Below, one piece after another: positions 8,234 through 10,597 of a stretch of 64,000 nt of DNA; within the stretch, counting starts at the first letter, position 1; every line of letters starts with the position of its first letter. A model generated the notes under the pieces. That model worked only from the letters and a program-made list of their open reading frames with translations, made no database searches and was not told the origin of the DNA. The position numbers and the translations under genes are program-made. Origin of the DNA: Gammaproteobacteria bacterium (GTDB taxonomy: Bacteria > Pseudomonadota > Gammaproteobacteria > SZUA-140); NCBI GenBank assembly GCA_003230085.1, contig QIGV01000154.1, positions 1,702-65,701 on the forward strand, read 5' to 3'.

Positions 8234-8731
8234 TTACCCGGTCATGGCCTTTTTGGTTTCGTCGAGCGTTATCATTAAGGTCATATCATTCGTCAGAGAT
8301 TTACGAAAACCCCATTGCTGATAAAAATTTCTGGCTTTATCTGTTAGTGCATGAACAAGCAGGGCACGGATCCCTGCCTGTTCTGCAACAATAATAGTGC
8401 GCTGAATGGCGTCCTTCAGCATTCCGGTTCCCATTTGCTTACCTTGCCAATCAACATCAACTGCTAATCGACCCAGTACCATCACGGGTATGGGGTCAGG
8501 CATATTTCGCCGTATTTTTCCTGAAGACTCTTCTCTGGTGATAGCGCCTACTGCTAGTGAGTAATATGCAATAATGGTATTGTCTTCGCACACGACAAAA
8601 GTTCGTGAGGCGCCGCTGTTTTCGTTCTTTATGGCGCGACGCTGCAGCCAGTCATTAAGCGTCGTGTCTCCACAGTCAAAAGCAGTAATATCATGTGTGC
8701 CAGCAATGGGGCAGGGGGCGCTTATTCCCAT
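8234..8731 (-). CDS. GNAT-family acetyltransferase toxin of a type II TA system (TacT/KacT-like)
   Basis: 165 aa. GNAT core LGRLAVD...QGKQMGTGMLKDA. Overlaps the upstream DUF1778 antitoxin gene by 10 nt. Confidence 0.8.
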   Translation of the reverse strand: MGISAPCPIAGTHDITAFDCGDTTLNDWLQRRAIKNENSGASRTFVVCEDNTIIAYYSLAVGAITREESSGKIRRNMPDPIPVMVLGRLAVDVDWQGKQMGTGMLKDAIQRTIIVAEQAGIRALLVHALTDKARNFYQQWGFRKSLTNDMTLMITLDETKKAMTG

Positions 8732-8997
8732 GGCGCTTTGCGCGCCATGAGATTGCGTAGCGTGGGATTGTCTTTGACGGGTGCATCCAGCGTCGCCATG
8801 AAGGCGTTAAAATCCGCCTCGTTGAGTCTGAAGAGTTGCTGATCCAGCAGAATATTTTCGGCTTCGCGGCAGGCGGTTTCCAGCATAAAATCTGAGCGGT
8901 TTTTACCTAGTATAGTGGCGGCCCTGTCAATCAAGCTGCGTTGTGATTCCAGTGCACGCAAATTGATAGGGGCTGTACGGGTTGCGGACTGTGCCAT
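8722..8997 (-). CDS. DUF1778 (RHH) antitoxin, TacA-like
   Basis: Pattern INLR..ES.RSLIDRAA..LG.NRSDFMLE.A...F.AF...LDAP matches TacA. Start taken at MAQSATR, which has a GGAGA RBS; the ORF track begins 20 codons earlier. Confidence 0.75.
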   Translation of the reverse strand: MAQSATRTAPINLRALESQRSLIDRAATILGKNRSDFMLETACREAENILLDQQLFRLNEADFNAFMATLDAPVKDNPTLRNLMARKAPWE

Positions 8998-9062
8998 ATC
9001 GATATCTCCAGGAACGATGATGATGTTTAGTATATTGTATATCGGATAGATATACAATTGCT

Positions 9063-9362
9063 TTATGGATGGCTAGGTGTGTGATGCAACTTTACAGTGC
9101 GCTTATGCGTTATCTTGCCAGCACCAACGGTATCAAGAACATATGTTAATAGCTCGATTTCAGTGTTGCTGATGCTGATGGCAAGCTGATGGTTTTCATT
9201 ACGATGTTTCCGGCACAGCGTCACGGTGCCTTCTCCGTCAATCAGGCCGGCAATGTAGGCGGTATCGGTGGGTGAAAGCGGATTGACTGTTCGGTAAGAA
9301 ACCATCCTTGGTTCTCTCTTGTAGTAGACAATAAAATGGCCCTGGCATCTTTCCAGGGCCAT
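9063..9362 (-). CDS. truncated single-motif LAGLIDADG homing-endonuclease-like ORF (probable remnant)
   Basis: YIAGLIDGEGTV motif followed by HQLAISI...LLTYVLDTVGAGKI, collinear with the beta1-beta2-alpha region of I-CreI-type enzymes. Only 99 aa, and it ends where the fold should continue. Confidence 0.55.
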   Translation of the reverse strand: MALERCQGHFIVYYKREPRMVSYRTVNPLSPTDTAYIAGLIDGEGTVTLCRKHRNENHQLAISISNTEIELLTYVLDTVGAGKITHKRTVKLHHTPSHP

Positions 9363-9367
9363 GCTGT

Positions 9368-10004
9368 TGGTGGAGGCGGCGGGACAGCTTATCCAAACCT
9401 TTCGGAATGGGCTGGACTATACCTTCATCCTGTTGCCAGGATGCGGGGCGTGTTATTCACCATGTCGTTTTATGGCAAATCCTAGTGCTGGCTCGGTCCT
9501 GTCGGACTCAGCCAGTCTATGAGTCTCTACAGGGCAGGCCTGAGGTTAGCCCTCTTCCTACCCCTCGGTATTGCCCTGACAGCCTGTGCTGCTTTAGGTT
9601 TCACCGATGTGAGCCCCGTTATTCACTTTACCCTTACGGATAAAGGCGACCCGTGTTGATCGAACCCGCGTCCGCAAATCCTCTGCCTTCGGTTCTACAT
9701 GCTTATCCGCGTCAATTAGTTTAACTGCTTGCTACCCGACGGGCAGGGAAGACAAACAGCGAGTCCGGTAAGAGTTTAACGAATCCACCCCGGACGAGCT
9801 TCATCGCGATTCTGTGAGAGATGACGCCTGAGGTCTGAACGCACAGACACGGCTTCAGTCAGACGGCACCCTACTGGGTTTTAAGCAGCGAGTGCGTAGT
9901 TGTCGTCGTTGGCAACTATAAGGTTGCAGCTGGATTTACGAGGTTGTCTGCCCCTCGACATGCACCTAAGGTTTCGCGACCCACGTCGAAGCCAAGTCGC
10001 CCCC
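9368..10004 (-). ncRNA. ssrA: tmRNA (ssrA), apparently interrupted in the T-loop by a group I intron. Exon 1 is complement 9659..10004 and exon 2 is complement 9368..9384.
   Basis: 5' GGGGGCGACUUGGCUUCGACGUGGGUCGCGAAACC...; tag ORF GCCAACGACGACAACUACGCACUCGCUGCUUAA encodes ANDDNYALAA*. The sequence aligns with E. coli ssrA through PK4 to GCGGGUUCGAU, is then interrupted, and resumes with UCCCGCCGCCUCCACCA. Joining the two parts gives a 7-bp acceptor stem with G3:U70, the T-stem GCGGG/CCCGC, a 7-nt T-loop and 363 nt in total. Confidence 0.85.
9385..9658 (-). other. putative group I intron within the ssrA T-loop (~274 nt)
   Basis: 5' exon ends in U and the insert ends in G. An IGS GUCG pairs with exon CGAU (P1). 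There is an S-like element AAGGUAUAGUCC and an R-like element GUAGAGACUCAUAGAC. GNRA hairpins are present (UUUAUCC-GUAA-GGGUAAA and CC-GAAA-GG). Confidence 0.6.
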
Positions 10005-10117
10005 TTGATGTTTATTATATAGGTTCAGAGGAAAGATAAAAGATAAAAGAGGAAAGATAACGAAGCTATTATATAATTGGTTGTTTTTTGTATCTTTTAT
10101 CTTTTATCTTTGCTCTT

Positions 10118-10597
10118 TTATCTGATCTTAAGGAGCCGCTGCTTTTCCCGTGCCCAGTCGCGTTCGCGTTCATTGGCGCGTTTGTCGTGCTGTTTTTTGC
10201 CCTTTGCCATCCCGATTTTGAGTTTTGCCAGACCACCTTTCCAGTACATGCTGACGGGGACCAGGGTATAGCCCTTGCGTTCGACGGCGCCGATCAGGGT
10301 GCCGAGTTCCTTGCGATGCAAGAGTAACTTACGGGTGCGAAGGGGGTCAGGATTGATATGGGTGGATGCGGTGGGCAAAGGCGAGATATGGGCCCCAAAC
10401 AGCCAGGCCTCGCCGTTTTTGATGGTGACGTAGCTTTCTTTGATCTGGATGCGGCTGGCTCGCAGGCTTTTGACTTCCCAGCCCTCCAGTATCAGGCCGG
10501 CTTCAAATTGATCTTCGATGAAATAATCATGAAATGCCTTTTTGTTCACCACAATGGTGTTGTCCGGCTTTTTGGATTTTGATTTGCTTTTTGCCAT
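10118..10597 (-). CDS. smpB: SsrA-binding protein
   Basis: 159 aa; [12 protein letters not shown]...[10 protein letters not shown] motifs; lies immediately upstream of ssrA. Confidence 0.95.

What the first reader, a model, noticed from the sequence alone, without database searches (positions are those of the whole stretch)
9368..10004. ssrA (tmRNA) appears to be split in its T-loop by a ~274-nt group I intron
The tmRNA aligns with E. coli ssrA from the 5' GGGGG through the ANDDNYALAA tag and PK2 to PK4, up to GCGGGUUCGAU in the T-arm. Foreign sequence of about 274 nt then follows, and the gene resumes with UCCCGCCGCCUCCACCA. Joining the two parts gives T-stem GCGGG/CCCGC, a 7-nt loop UUCGAUU, a perfect 7-bp acceptor stem (GGGGGCG/CGCCUCC) carrying the G3:U70 alanine identity pair, and a 363-nt mature length.

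The insert has several group I intron features. The 5' exon ends in U and the insert ends in G. An internal guide GUCG can pair with exon CGAU, with a U:G at the splice site. There is an S-like block AAGGUAUAGUCC (consensus AAGAUAUAGUCC) and an R-like block GUAGAGACUCAUAGAC. GNRA-capped hairpins are present at P2-like and P9-like positions.

Intron-containing tmRNA genes are extremely rare; a T-loop group I intron has been reported in a clostridial ssrA. If real, tmRNA maturation here would depend on self-splicing.
Basis: partly seen in the sequence, partly recalled or inferred. Interest (0 to 1): 0.8.

Follow-up and report, generated by a model that had tools for sequence, protein, structure and literature searches.

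The report
Intron-split tmRNA gene with endonuclease remnant
The ribosome-rescue RNA gene (ssrA/tmRNA) of this gammaproteobacterium really is interrupted in its T-loop by a 274-nt self-splicing-type group I intron, a known though uncommon gene form, and just downstream lies the broken remnant of a homing endonuclease gene that in many relatives accompanies this intron.

Summary
Removing the insert gives a 363-nt tmRNA (tag ANDDNYALAA) that ARAGORN then recognises.

The insert is a genuine group I intron.
- It aligns full-length to Rfam Intron_gpI, though below the gathering score.
- It has more than 100 homologues at the same T-loop site.
- On these, P1-P9 plus P7.1/P7.2 are 93% paired, and 49 pairs change on both sides.
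- The -1 U·G pair is invariant, and the T-stem covaries across the intron (108/108).

This gene form is already described: 883 unique sequences, 159 instances in Pseudomonadota, mostly at this loop position 7. The window is therefore a new member of a known kind, not "extremely rare".

One result goes beyond the finding. ORF 9305..9063 is the N-terminal 79 codons of an I-CreI-like LAGLIDADG endonuclease. Intact 141-165-aa copies lie just downstream of the intron-form tmRNA in 61 of 91 related loci, and in none of 10 intron-less loci. In 11 of 85 loci a second copy of the tmRNA 3' end follows the endonuclease gene. This suggests, but does not prove, trans ("collaborative") homing.

The parts
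10118..10597 (-). smpB (159 aa), the tmRNA partner protein, directly upstream of ssrA
   Evidence: ORF. It is 59-75% identical to the SmpB of 80 gamma- and betaproteobacterial loci. The same SNF-smpB-ssrA synteny is seen in L204, L207, L209 and L212.
10014..10019 (-). TATAAT hexamer 9 nt upstream of the tmRNA 5' end; a candidate -10 box (inferred only)
   Evidence: Read from the sequence. The consensus scan found no two-hexamer promoter here.
9659..10004 (-). tmRNA exon 1 (346 nt): acceptor 5' strand, tag reading frame, pseudoknots, 5' T-stem and the first 6 T-loop nucleotides, ending ...GCGGGUUCGAU
   Evidence: Rfam RF00023 at 168.5 bits, exact mapping, and 85.7% identity to the uninterrupted L063 tmRNA.
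9881..9913 (-). Tag reading frame GCC AAC GAC GAC AAC TAC GCA CTC GCT GCT TAA = ANDDNYALAA*
   Evidence: ARAGORN on the in-silico spliced RNA places the tag at tmRNA positions 92-124.
9385..9658 (-). Group I intron, 274 nt, IA-type (has P7.1 and P7.2), no ORF, inserted at T-loop internucleotide position 7 (UUCGAU|U), ending in omega-G at 9385
   Evidence: RF00028 full-length alignment. Alignment of 105 sequences. Pair counts: 93.2% of cells paired, against 36-48% when partners are slid, with 49 pairs changed on both sides. RNAalifold recovers the same helices. No private changes in conserved columns.
9647..9662 (-). P1: exon CGAU plus intron C (9662..9658) paired with the internal guide GGUCG (9651..9647); the U(-1)·G wobble marks the 5' splice site
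   Evidence: the U·G pair is present in 105 of 105 sequences, and the neighbouring pair varies CG 92 / UG 7 / UA 6.
9415..9618 (-). Catalytic core. P3 9618-9613/9449-9444; P4 9607-9602/9570-9565; P6 9563-9557/9538-9532; P7 9525-9522/9418-9415; P7.1 9515-9510/9493-9488; P7.2 9476-9472/9463-9459; P8 9441-9437/9432-9428
   Evidence: Helix positions, converted with window = 9670 - position. Per-helix pairing is 85-100%. P7 is invariant.
9386..9413 (-). P9 hairpin (CCAUUCC-GAAA-GGUUUGG, with a tandem U·U) flanked by P9.0 (AGC 9413-9411 / GCU 9388-9386)
   Evidence: P9 is 96.6% paired with 5 of 7 pairs changed on both sides; P9.0 is 94.6% paired. The tandem U·U is shared with L117.
9368..9384 (-). 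tmRNA exon 2 (17 nt): last T-loop U, 3' T-stem CCCGC, acceptor 3' strand CGCCUCC, ACCA
   Evidence: T-stem covariation with exon 1 in 108 of 108 homologues.
9336..9362 (-). Intrinsic-terminator-like hairpin (10-bp stem, 7 G-C pairs, T-run), 5 nt after the CCA end
9063..9305 (-). Truncated free-standing LAGLIDADG homing endonuclease gene. The 80-codon ORF keeps the motif IAGLIDGEG and matches homologues over about 79 residues. It stops where intact homologues (141-165 aa) continue.
   Evidence: Pfam LAGLIDADG_3 at 22.0 bits, cut-off 22.5. 49-76% identity to ORFs downstream of intron-form tmRNAs. The family HMM covers only positions 1-79 of 150, and no C-terminal half exists elsewhere in the window. 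Alignment A3.
8234..9057 (-). TacA-like antitoxin (8722..9057) and GNAT acetyltransferase toxin (8234..8731), occupying the place where the endonuclease 3' half would be
   Evidence: Pfam TacA1 at 91.5 bits; Acetyltransf_7, _10 and _1. This is context, not part of the intron.

Best explanation
**What it is.** This is the chromosomal ssrA gene in its known "intron form". It lies next to smpB, with recN, dnaK and dnaJ elsewhere in the same 64-kb window.

**Inferred mechanism**
1. The gene is transcribed as a precursor of about 640 nt that ends at the hairpin 9362..9336.
2. The 274-nt insert folds into an IA-type group I ribozyme (P1-P9 with P7.1 and P7.2).
3. An exogenous guanosine attacks after the U of ...UUCGAU, which is held in a U·G wobble by the internal guide GGUCG.
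4. The freed 3'-OH then attacks after the terminal G at 9385.
5. Ligation restores the T-loop UUCGAUU and the T-stem GCGGG/CCCGC, giving a 363-nt tmRNA.
6. After normal end processing this RNA can be charged with alanine (G3·U70) and can act with SmpB in trans-translation, adding the tag ANDDNYALAA.

**Shown here:** the exact boundaries, the reconstituted tmRNA, the conserved and covarying ribozyme structure, and selection on exon-exon pairing across the intron.

**Inferred, not shown:** transcription limits, self-splicing chemistry and function.

**Likely history.** The intron probably arrived and is maintained as part of a unit with a free-standing I-CreI-like endonuclease gene located just downstream of ssrA. 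In this genome that gene is truncated after about 79 codons and is presumably dead. The intron is therefore now most likely an immobile passenger that must keep splicing.
For: **Boundaries and reconstitution:**

**Group I identity**
- RF00028 aligns across the full model and places P1, P2, P3, P4-P6, the R and S elements, P8 and P9.
- More than 120 homologues occupy the identical site.
- 93.2% of pair cells are paired, against 36-48% in slid controls. 49 of 82 pairs change on both sides, and 0 of 500 shuffles reach any of the measures.
- RNAalifold independently predicts the same helices, with 44 of 78 pairs compensatory.
- U(-1)·G is present in 105 of 105 sequences, and the intron's last base is G in all 105 sequences. 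The selection pattern itself required that G.

**Exons function together:** the T-stem second pair is C-G in 73 loci and G-C in 35, never mixed.

**No decay in the window copy:**

**Genomic setting**
- The locus is chromosomal and syntenic with relatives.
- There is no other tmRNA in the window.

**Precedent**
- Intron-form tmRNA with the intron at T-loop position 7 is documented in 21 phyla (PMC11915505).
- The Clostridium botulinum tmRNA intron (287 nt) is cited there as previously shown to self-splice (PMC2729099).

**Endonuclease remnant:**
Against: - The RF00028 score (27.3 bits) is below Rfam's gathering score of 50.
- P10 is weak, with at most about 2 bp between the guide and exon 2 by my reading of the sequence.
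- P9 has a tandem U·U mismatch in the window copy.
- No RNA data exist for this organism, so splicing is inferred.
- Only 64 kb were seen, so a second, uninterrupted ssrA elsewhere in the genome cannot be excluded.
- The sequences used for covariation are related to one another and were selected with two conserved intron motifs. Shuffle controls therefore overstate significance; the slid-partner control is the fairer one.
Confidence: 0.9

Rival explanations
1. The insert is a dead or non-splicing insertion, and this ssrA copy is a disrupted pseudogene. Ribosome rescue would then be provided by another ssrA or by ArfA/ArfB-type systems.
For: - ARAGORN and Rfam at gathering threshold do not see a complete tmRNA or an intron.
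- Only one 64-kb window was examined.
Against: - Every ribozyme helix is intact in the window copy apart from a tandem U·U in P9, which its relative L117 shares.
- All 212 family-conserved columns are kept except one shared 1-nt insertion.
- Exon 2 is perfectly conserved and covaries with exon 1 across more than 100 loci.
- The gene sits in the conserved smpB-ssrA position and has its own terminator.
Confidence: 0.04
2. The 17-nt 3' segment is an attR-type duplicate left by an element integrated into the tmRNA 3' end. Under this reading the 274 nt is the edge of that element, not an intron.
For: - tmRNA genes are frequent island integration sites (PMC11915505).
- In 11 of 85 related loci the tmRNA 3' end really is duplicated, but downstream of the endonuclease gene.
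Against: - The window holds only one copy of the 3' segment, even allowing 2-3 mismatches.
- The 274 nt carries no integrase or other ORF homologous to anything, and it folds as a covarying group I ribozyme.
- In relatives that do have a duplicate, the copy next to the intron's terminal G is the perfectly conserved one. The distal copy is often degenerate.
Confidence: 0.02
3. The intron is real but does not self-splice efficiently in vivo. It would depend on a protein helper, either a host factor or a maturase-like activity of the neighbouring LAGLIDADG protein in genomes that keep it.
For: - Some LAGLIDADG proteins act as maturases. The bI3 maturase is among the sequence and fold matches of the endonuclease family.
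- P10 is weak (my reading of the sequence).
Against: - The window and about a third of related loci lack an intact endonuclease gene yet keep an intact intron and exons.
- The related C. botulinum tmRNA intron is cited as previously shown to self-splice in vitro (PMC2729099).
Confidence: 0.08

Closest known systems
Intron-form tmRNA genes: group I intron at TΨC-loop position 7 (Williams 2002, Clostridium botulinum; catalogued in the tmRNA database, PMC11915505)
   Same: - Same host gene and same loop subsite. The intron follows the sixth loop nucleotide, which I equate with the paper's internucleotide position 7.
- -1 U paired with G in P1, and a terminal G.
- Size is within the reported range (founding set averages 293 nt; here 274 nt).
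- The 3' exon is too short for standard tmRNA finders.
- No ORF inside the intron, as in about 96% of catalogued cases.
   Different: - The host is a gammaproteobacterium. The form is mainly found in Bacillota (PMC13011429), with 159 instances among 183,138 Pseudomonadota genomes.
- I could not check whether this exact sequence is already in the database.
Subgroup IA group I introns, the class with P7.1/P7.2 between P7 and P3' (class features as summarised in PMC3984707)
   Same: - P7.1 (6 bp plus a GNRA-capped extension) and P7.2 are present and covary.
- The P3/P7 pseudoknot and the R and S core elements are present.
   Different: - I did not assign a subclass (IA1, IA2 or IA3). My memory that the clostridial tmRNA intron was called IA3 could not be verified, because the paper is not held.
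[quoted passage not shown] Examples are cyanophage S-PM2 psbA with F-CphI and phage T4 mobE with I-TevIII (PMC3984707, PMC2790892, PMC6083498)
   Same: - An ORF-less intron sits in a conserved gene with a homing endonuclease gene immediately alongside but outside the intron.
- Co-occurrence is strong in both directions.
   Different: - The setting here is a bacterial chromosome, and the host gene encodes a structural RNA.
- The enzyme is an I-CreI-like LAGLIDADG protein, not an Endo VII-like or HNH enzyme.
- The enzyme's target is unknown.
- In the window the gene is truncated.
I-CreI / I-MsoI / I-CvuI: homodimeric single-motif LAGLIDADG homing endonucleases
   Same: - An intact family member (P0052, Thioalkalivibrio) models at pLDDT 91 with the alpha-beta-beta-alpha-beta-beta-alpha core.
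- It matches these structures at TM 0.71-0.78, E about 1e-7.
- It has one LAGLIDADG motif with a terminal acidic residue.
   Different: - Only 16-21% sequence identity.
- The gene is free-standing next to the host gene rather than intron-encoded in rRNA.
- The window copy lacks strands beta3-beta4 and all C-terminal helices.

Membership tests
Intron-form tmRNA (group I intron in the TΨC loop) | The two exons reconstitute a canonical tmRNA: acceptor stem with G3·U70, tag reading frame, T-arm and CCA | tested here: met
   ARAGORN calls a 363-nt tmRNA with tag ANDDNYALAA only after the insert is removed. Rfam tmRNA scores 168.5 bits on exon 1. The joined RNA is 85.7% identical to an uninterrupted homologue.
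Intron-form tmRNA (group I intron in the TΨC loop) | The insert lies within the 7-nt T-loop; the main subsite is internucleotide position 7 | tested here: met
   Exon 1 ends UUCGAU and exon 2 starts U-CCCGC. The site is the same in 108 of 108 homologues. The site definition comes from PMC11915505.
Group I intron | -1 U of the 5' exon in a U·G wobble within P1, and a 3'-terminal G (omega-G) | tested here: met
   The U·G pair is present in 105 of 105 sequences and the terminal G is invariant. The window has ...CGAU|C paired with GGUCG and ends ...CUG|U. The selection pattern required the terminal G.
Group I intron | Conserved core P3-P4-P6 and P3-P7-P8 with R/S elements, supported by covariation | tested here: met
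   (alignment to RF00028). (P3 100%, P4 99.8%, P6 99.7%, P7 99.8% and P8 91.6% paired; 49 pairs changed on both sides). (independent RNAalifold prediction).
Group I intron | Reaches Rfam RF00028 gathering score (50 bits) | tested here: inconclusive
   The score is 27.3 bits, E = 3.5e-5 in a 361-nt search, and there is no hit at gathering threshold. This is an operational cut-off, not a structural feature. None of the 12 RF00028 seed sequences was bacterial, and 20 bits is used for bacterial tRNA introns (bioRxiv 10.1101/2020.01.27.920355).
Group I intron | Guanosine-dependent self-splicing | not testable with these tools
   Needs in-vitro transcription and splicing, or RNA data.
Subgroup IA | Extra helices P7.1 and P7.2 between P7 and the 3' strand of P3 | tested here: met
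   P7.1 is 99.5% paired with 5 of 6 pairs changed on both sides. P7.2 is 85% paired with 5 of 5 changed. Both were recovered by RNAalifold.
LAGLIDADG homing endonuclease (I-CreI-like) | LAGLIDADG motif with acidic catalytic residue | tested here: met
   The window ORF has IAGLIDGEG. Pfam LAGLIDADG_3 scores 22.0 bits (cut-off 22.5) for the fragment and 27.2-27.4 bits for intact homologues.
LAGLIDADG homing endonuclease (I-CreI-like) | Complete alpha-beta-beta-alpha-beta-beta-alpha core domain | tested here: not met
   The window ORF stops after matching about 79 of roughly 145 residues, and no C-terminal half exists anywhere in the window. The feature is met in homologues. The window copy is therefore a gene fragment, not a functional member.
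Collaborative / trans homing unit | Free-standing endonuclease gene adjacent to an ORF-less intron in the same locus | tested here: met
   61 of 91 intron-form loci with at least 500 nt of downstream flank carry the gene, against 0 of 10 intron-less loci. All 6 endonuclease-seeded look-ups have the intron form upstream. The window holds a truncated copy.
Collaborative / trans homing unit | [quoted passage not shown] | not testable with these tools
   Only indirect evidence exists. In 11 of 85 loci a second tmRNA 3' end, beginning in or just before the T-loop, follows the endonuclease gene; the control gave 0 of 85.
Genomic island integrated at the tmRNA 3' end | Direct repeat of the tmRNA 3' segment bounding an element with an integrase | tested here: not met
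   The window has a single copy of the segment at up to 2-3 mismatches. No integrase lies between ssrA and the neighbouring genes.
Two-piece (circularly permuted) tmRNA | The acceptor 3' piece is encoded upstream of the 5' piece | tested here: not met
   Gene order is standard: 5' acceptor, tag, pseudoknots, T-arm, CCA.

The most novel reading that the evidence does not exclude
The tmRNA intron is the RNA half of a two-part mobile unit. A free-standing I-CreI-like endonuclease gene sits 35-200 nt downstream of ssrA. Its product would cut intron-less ssrA genes in the T-arm. Repair from an intron-bearing donor would copy the intron, exon 2 and the endonuclease gene together. Where downstream homology is missing, this would leave the recipient's own 3' end as a scar after the endonuclease gene. 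The intron would protect its carrier by splitting the target site.

This would be trans ("collaborative") homing operating in bacterial chromosomes on a structural-RNA gene. It would also mean that the reported 4% endonuclease content of tmRNA introns greatly understates their mobility. The window shows the decayed end-state: the intron is kept and the endonuclease gene is truncated.
Probability: 0.5. Interest if true: 0.65.

Novelty: new member of a known kind. Interest (0 to 1): 0.42.

Why it matters
**For annotation.** Standard finders report no tmRNA here. ARAGORN returns nothing, and Rfam gives a hit that lacks the 3' T-stem and acceptor strand. Genomes of this lineage can therefore be wrongly scored as lacking or truncating ssrA.

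**For biology.** The essential ribosome-rescue RNA of this organism depends on ribozyme splicing.

**The wider point** comes from the neighbourhood. This proteobacterial intron family usually travels with an endonuclease gene placed outside the intron. The 2025 tmRNA catalogue counted only intron-internal endonuclease genes and concluded that they are rare. If the endonuclease targets intron-less ssrA, this is a large natural set for studying how ORF-less introns and free-standing endonucleases cooperate and decay. The protein search returned more than 1,500 homologues, including cultured Thioalkalivibrio.

Tried and rejected
1. **Second copy of the tmRNA 3' end in the window** (the attR test). 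None was found at up to 3 mismatches.
2. **Second tmRNA or any tRNA in the window.** None was found.
3. **Identifying the organism by exact-protein look-up.** SmpB and DnaK are not on record. The best SmpB match is 75% identical (uncultured Chromatiales MAG). I can only say it is a gammaproteobacterium with no close species representative in the collections searched.
4. **C-terminal half of the endonuclease elsewhere in the window**, for example beyond the toxin-antitoxin pair. It is absent.
5. **The idea that the endonuclease target is a pseudo-palindromic 22-bp site centred on the T-arm.** The best window has only 5 of 11 symmetric pairs, which 98.9% of shuffles equal or exceed. I dropped the idea.
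6. **Reading Williams 2002 (PMC99078) to confirm the IA3 assignment.** The paper is not held. A text search for IA3 plus tmRNA gave nothing relevant.
7. **Literature search for a free-standing endonuclease next to tmRNA.** Nothing relevant was found in the searchable library. That library lacks most subscription journals, so this is weak evidence of novelty.
8. **The P5a region.** My hand-drawn pairs fit the window but are only 31% paired on the MAFFT alignment. This region is length-variable and poorly aligned, so it says nothing either way.
Full report
**1. The observation**

All features are on the minus strand. Rfam finds one family at gathering threshold in the whole 64-kb window: tmRNA at 9996..9657, 168.5 bits. 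The alignment stops at ...GCGGGUUCGAU and lacks the 3' T-stem and acceptor strand. ARAGORN reports no tRNA or tmRNA in the window.

Exact mapping gives three segments:
- exon 1 at 10004..9659 (346 nt)
- a 274-nt insert at 9658..9385
- a 17-nt exon 2 at 9384..9368 (TCCCGCCGCCTCCACCA)

When the insert is removed in silico, ARAGORN calls a 363-nt tmRNA with tag ANDDNYALAA. On the unspliced sequence it calls nothing. The joined RNA is colinear with the uninterrupted tmRNA of a related gammaproteobacterial MAG (L063). Identity is 85.7%, and the last 32 nt are identical.

Exon 2 is unique in the window. A terminator-like hairpin follows it after 5 nt. smpB lies directly upstream. recN, dnaK, dnaJ and addAB lie elsewhere in the same 64-kb window, so this is an ordinary chromosomal ssrA locus.

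**2. What the insert is**

A permissive Rfam search of 9340..9700 aligns the insert to the whole Intron_gpI model (positions 1-253) at 27.3 bits, E = 3.5e-5. The alignment places the following elements:
- P1 (exon CGAU plus C against GGUCG, with U·G at the splice site)
- P2, P3, P4-P6
- the R element (GUAGAGACUC)
- P8
- the S element (GAUGAAGGUAUAGUCC)
- a GAAA-capped P9

The score is below Rfam's gathering cut-off of 50. However, none of the 12 RF00028 seed sequences was bacterial, and the published bacterial tRNA intron pipeline uses a 20-bit threshold (bioRxiv 10.1101/2020.01.27.920355).

*Comparative evidence.* Among 80 loci found through SmpB, three carry a homologous insert at the same place: one Woeseiaceae MAG and two Steroidobacteraceae MAGs. 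In every one the motif lies between ...G(C/G)GGGTTCGAT and TCCC(G/C)CCGCCTCCACCA.

*Structure test.* I drew P1-P9, P7.1, P7.1a, P7.2, P9.0 and the T-stem by hand on the window sequence. I then counted these pairs on an alignment of 105 distinct sequences:
- 93.2% of pair cells are standard pairs, against 36-48% when the partners are slid by 1-3 columns.
- 49 of 82 pairs show changes on both sides.
- No shuffle out of 500 reaches any of the five measures.
- The U(-1)·G pair is present in all 105 sequences, and P7 is invariant.

RNAalifold, run without my structure, predicts the same helices, with 44 of 78 pairs compensatory. P7.1 and P7.2 place the intron in the IA class.

*The window copy is healthy.* It agrees with the family in 211 of 212 columns that are at least 95% conserved. 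The exception is a 1-nt J2/3 insertion shared with its nearest relatives. Its only non-standard pairs are a tandem U·U in P9, also present in L117.

**3. Evidence that the exons are joined**

The second pair of the T-stem is split by the intron. It is C-G in 73 loci and G-C in 35, with no discordant case. The search pattern left both positions free. Selection for pairing between a base in exon 1 and a base about 280 nt downstream is expected only if the intron is removed. This is the strongest computational substitute for a splicing assay. It applies to the family, of which the window is a typical member (91.7% identical to L117 over this segment).

**4. Mechanism**

*Inferred from the established group I pathway.* The precursor folds. 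Guanosine attacks after U9659, held by the guide GGUCG (9651..9647). The exon's 3'-OH then attacks after G9385. The ligated product has T-loop UUCGAUU. P10 is weak by my reading, at about 2 bp. Alanine charging through G3·U70, SmpB binding and tagging then follow as for any tmRNA.

*Shown here:* boundaries, structure and selection.

*Not shown:* transcription start, splicing chemistry and function.

**5. Comparison with what is known**

This is the documented "intron form" of tmRNA. The 2025 database paper lists 883 unique intron-form sequences. All have the intron in the TΨC loop, and most are at loop position 7. They follow the same -1 U / omega-G rules and occur in 21 phyla (PMC11915505). 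Its supplementary table gives 159 instances in Pseudomonadota. A 2026 survey found tmRNA to host 6% of 846 bacterial group I introns, almost all in Bacillota (PMC13011429). The clostridial prototype (287 nt) is cited as previously shown to self-splice (PMC2729099).

The finding is a new member of a known kind, in a less usual phylum.

**6. What the surroundings add**

*The truncated endonuclease gene.* After the terminator comes an 80-codon ORF (9305..9063) with the motif IAGLIDGEG and borderline Pfam LAGLIDADG matches. Homologous ORFs lie 35-200 nt downstream of the CCA end, on the same strand. Most are complete and about 141-165 aa long. They are present in 61 of 91 intron-form loci that have at least 500 nt of flank, and in none of 10 intron-less tmRNA loci.

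*The reverse direction.* A protein search finds 1,559 homologues. All six that I looked up, chosen for long contigs, have an intron-form tmRNA immediately upstream. One is on a complete Thioalkalivibrio chromosome, CP183315.1.

*Fold.* An intact member models with pLDDT 91. It matches I-CreI, I-MsoI and I-CvuI at TM 0.71-0.78. These are homodimeric single-motif LAGLIDADG enzymes.

*State in the window.* The window ORF ends at ...HHTPSHP*, where the homologues continue ...TYAIYNRQAL...TPRNGKY.... The missing half is nowhere in the window. A TacA/GNAT toxin-antitoxin pair sits where it would be. The gene here is a dead remnant.

*A second copy of the tmRNA 3' end.* In 11 of 85 intron-form loci with enough flank, an uninterrupted second copy of the tmRNA 3' end (...TTCGATTCCCGCCGCCTCCACCA) lies just after the endonuclease stop codon. 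It is often degenerate, and its left edge lies in or just before the T-loop. The reverse strand of the same DNA gave 0 of 85.

*Interpretation.* I read this as the scar expected under the following sequence of events:
1. An intron-less ssrA is broken in its T-arm.
2. It is repaired by copying intron, exon 2 and endonuclease gene from a donor.
3. The copied strand is rejoined to the recipient's own 3' end.

That is the "collaborative" or trans homing arrangement described for phages (PMC3984707), here with a LAGLIDADG enzyme and a bacterial RNA gene.

The tmRNA database paper counted only endonuclease genes inside introns (36 of 883). It does not mention downstream ones. I found no paper describing them, but the searchable library is incomplete.

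*Limits of this reading.* The enzyme's target is untested. Co-occurrence could partly reflect shared descent. My idea of a palindromic T-arm target failed a simple test. I put this reading at about 0.5.

**7. Rivals**

- *Dead insertion or pseudogene.* This is contradicted by the intact, consensus-like ribozyme and exons and by the conserved locus.
- *attR-type duplicate of an integrated element.* This is contradicted for the window by the single copy of the 3' segment and by the ribozyme nature of the insert. The duplicates seen in relatives lie beyond the endonuclease gene, not at the intron.
- *Protein-assisted rather than autonomous splicing.* This cannot be excluded. It is not favoured, because about a third of loci, including this one, keep the intron without an intact endonuclease gene.

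**8. Verdict**

- The gene form is known, so novelty is modest.
- Interest comes mainly from the unreported, testable link to a free-standing endonuclease.

Noticed in passing
window 9063-9305 (-): A truncated LAGLIDADG homing endonuclease ORF, matching homologues over about 79 of roughly 145 residues, lies just downstream of the ssrA terminator. Intact homologues occupy this position in most related intron-form tmRNA loci and in no intron-less ones.
   Followed up: yes
L117:1173-1207; also after the endonuclease stop codon in L131, L170, L172, L178, L189 and L198 (intact) and in L081, L104, L108 and L119 (degenerate): A second, uninterrupted copy of the tmRNA 3' end (TTCGATTCCCGCCGCCTCCACCA) follows the endonuclease gene in 11 of 85 loci, usually just before a terminator. 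The window has no such copy.
   Followed up: partly
window 8234-9057 (-): A TacA-like antitoxin and a GNAT (TacT-like) toxin pair start right where the endonuclease ORF breaks off. A palindrome TTGTATATCTATCCGATATACAA lies in front of the pair (about 9056-9034), which may be its operator.
   Followed up: no
window 10020-10130: A long imperfect inverted repeat of A/G-rich units (AAAGATAAAAGA...; 24-nt arms 96% complementary, 40-nt arms 80%) spans the smpB stop codon and the smpB-ssrA spacer, ending just upstream of the candidate -10 box of ssrA. Its role is unknown.
   Followed up: no
L093, L103, L123, L142, L156, L181, L187 and L193 (alignment A2, columns about 255-292); L118 and L187 (columns about 325-360): Some family members carry extra hairpin-like inserts of about 35-45 nt, G+C-rich in the P7.2 cases (for example CCCCTCTCCCGCTTGCGGGAGAGGG), in the P7.2 loop or the P8 loop. 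They may be small mobile repeats that landed in tolerant loops.
   Followed up: no
window 9336-10004: ARAGORN returns nothing, and Rfam at gathering threshold returns a tmRNA hit that lacks the 3' T-stem and acceptor strand and no intron. Automated annotation would miss or truncate ssrA in this genome.
   Followed up: yes
L001-L080 (SmpB-seeded loci): Intron presence is patchy among related Gammaproteobacteria. Only 3 loci (L007, L041, L058) have the intron, while more than 20 have an uninterrupted tmRNA right after smpB. Several of the latter have a T-arm identical to the window's spliced one. This suggests gain and loss rather than simple vertical inheritance.
   Followed up: partly
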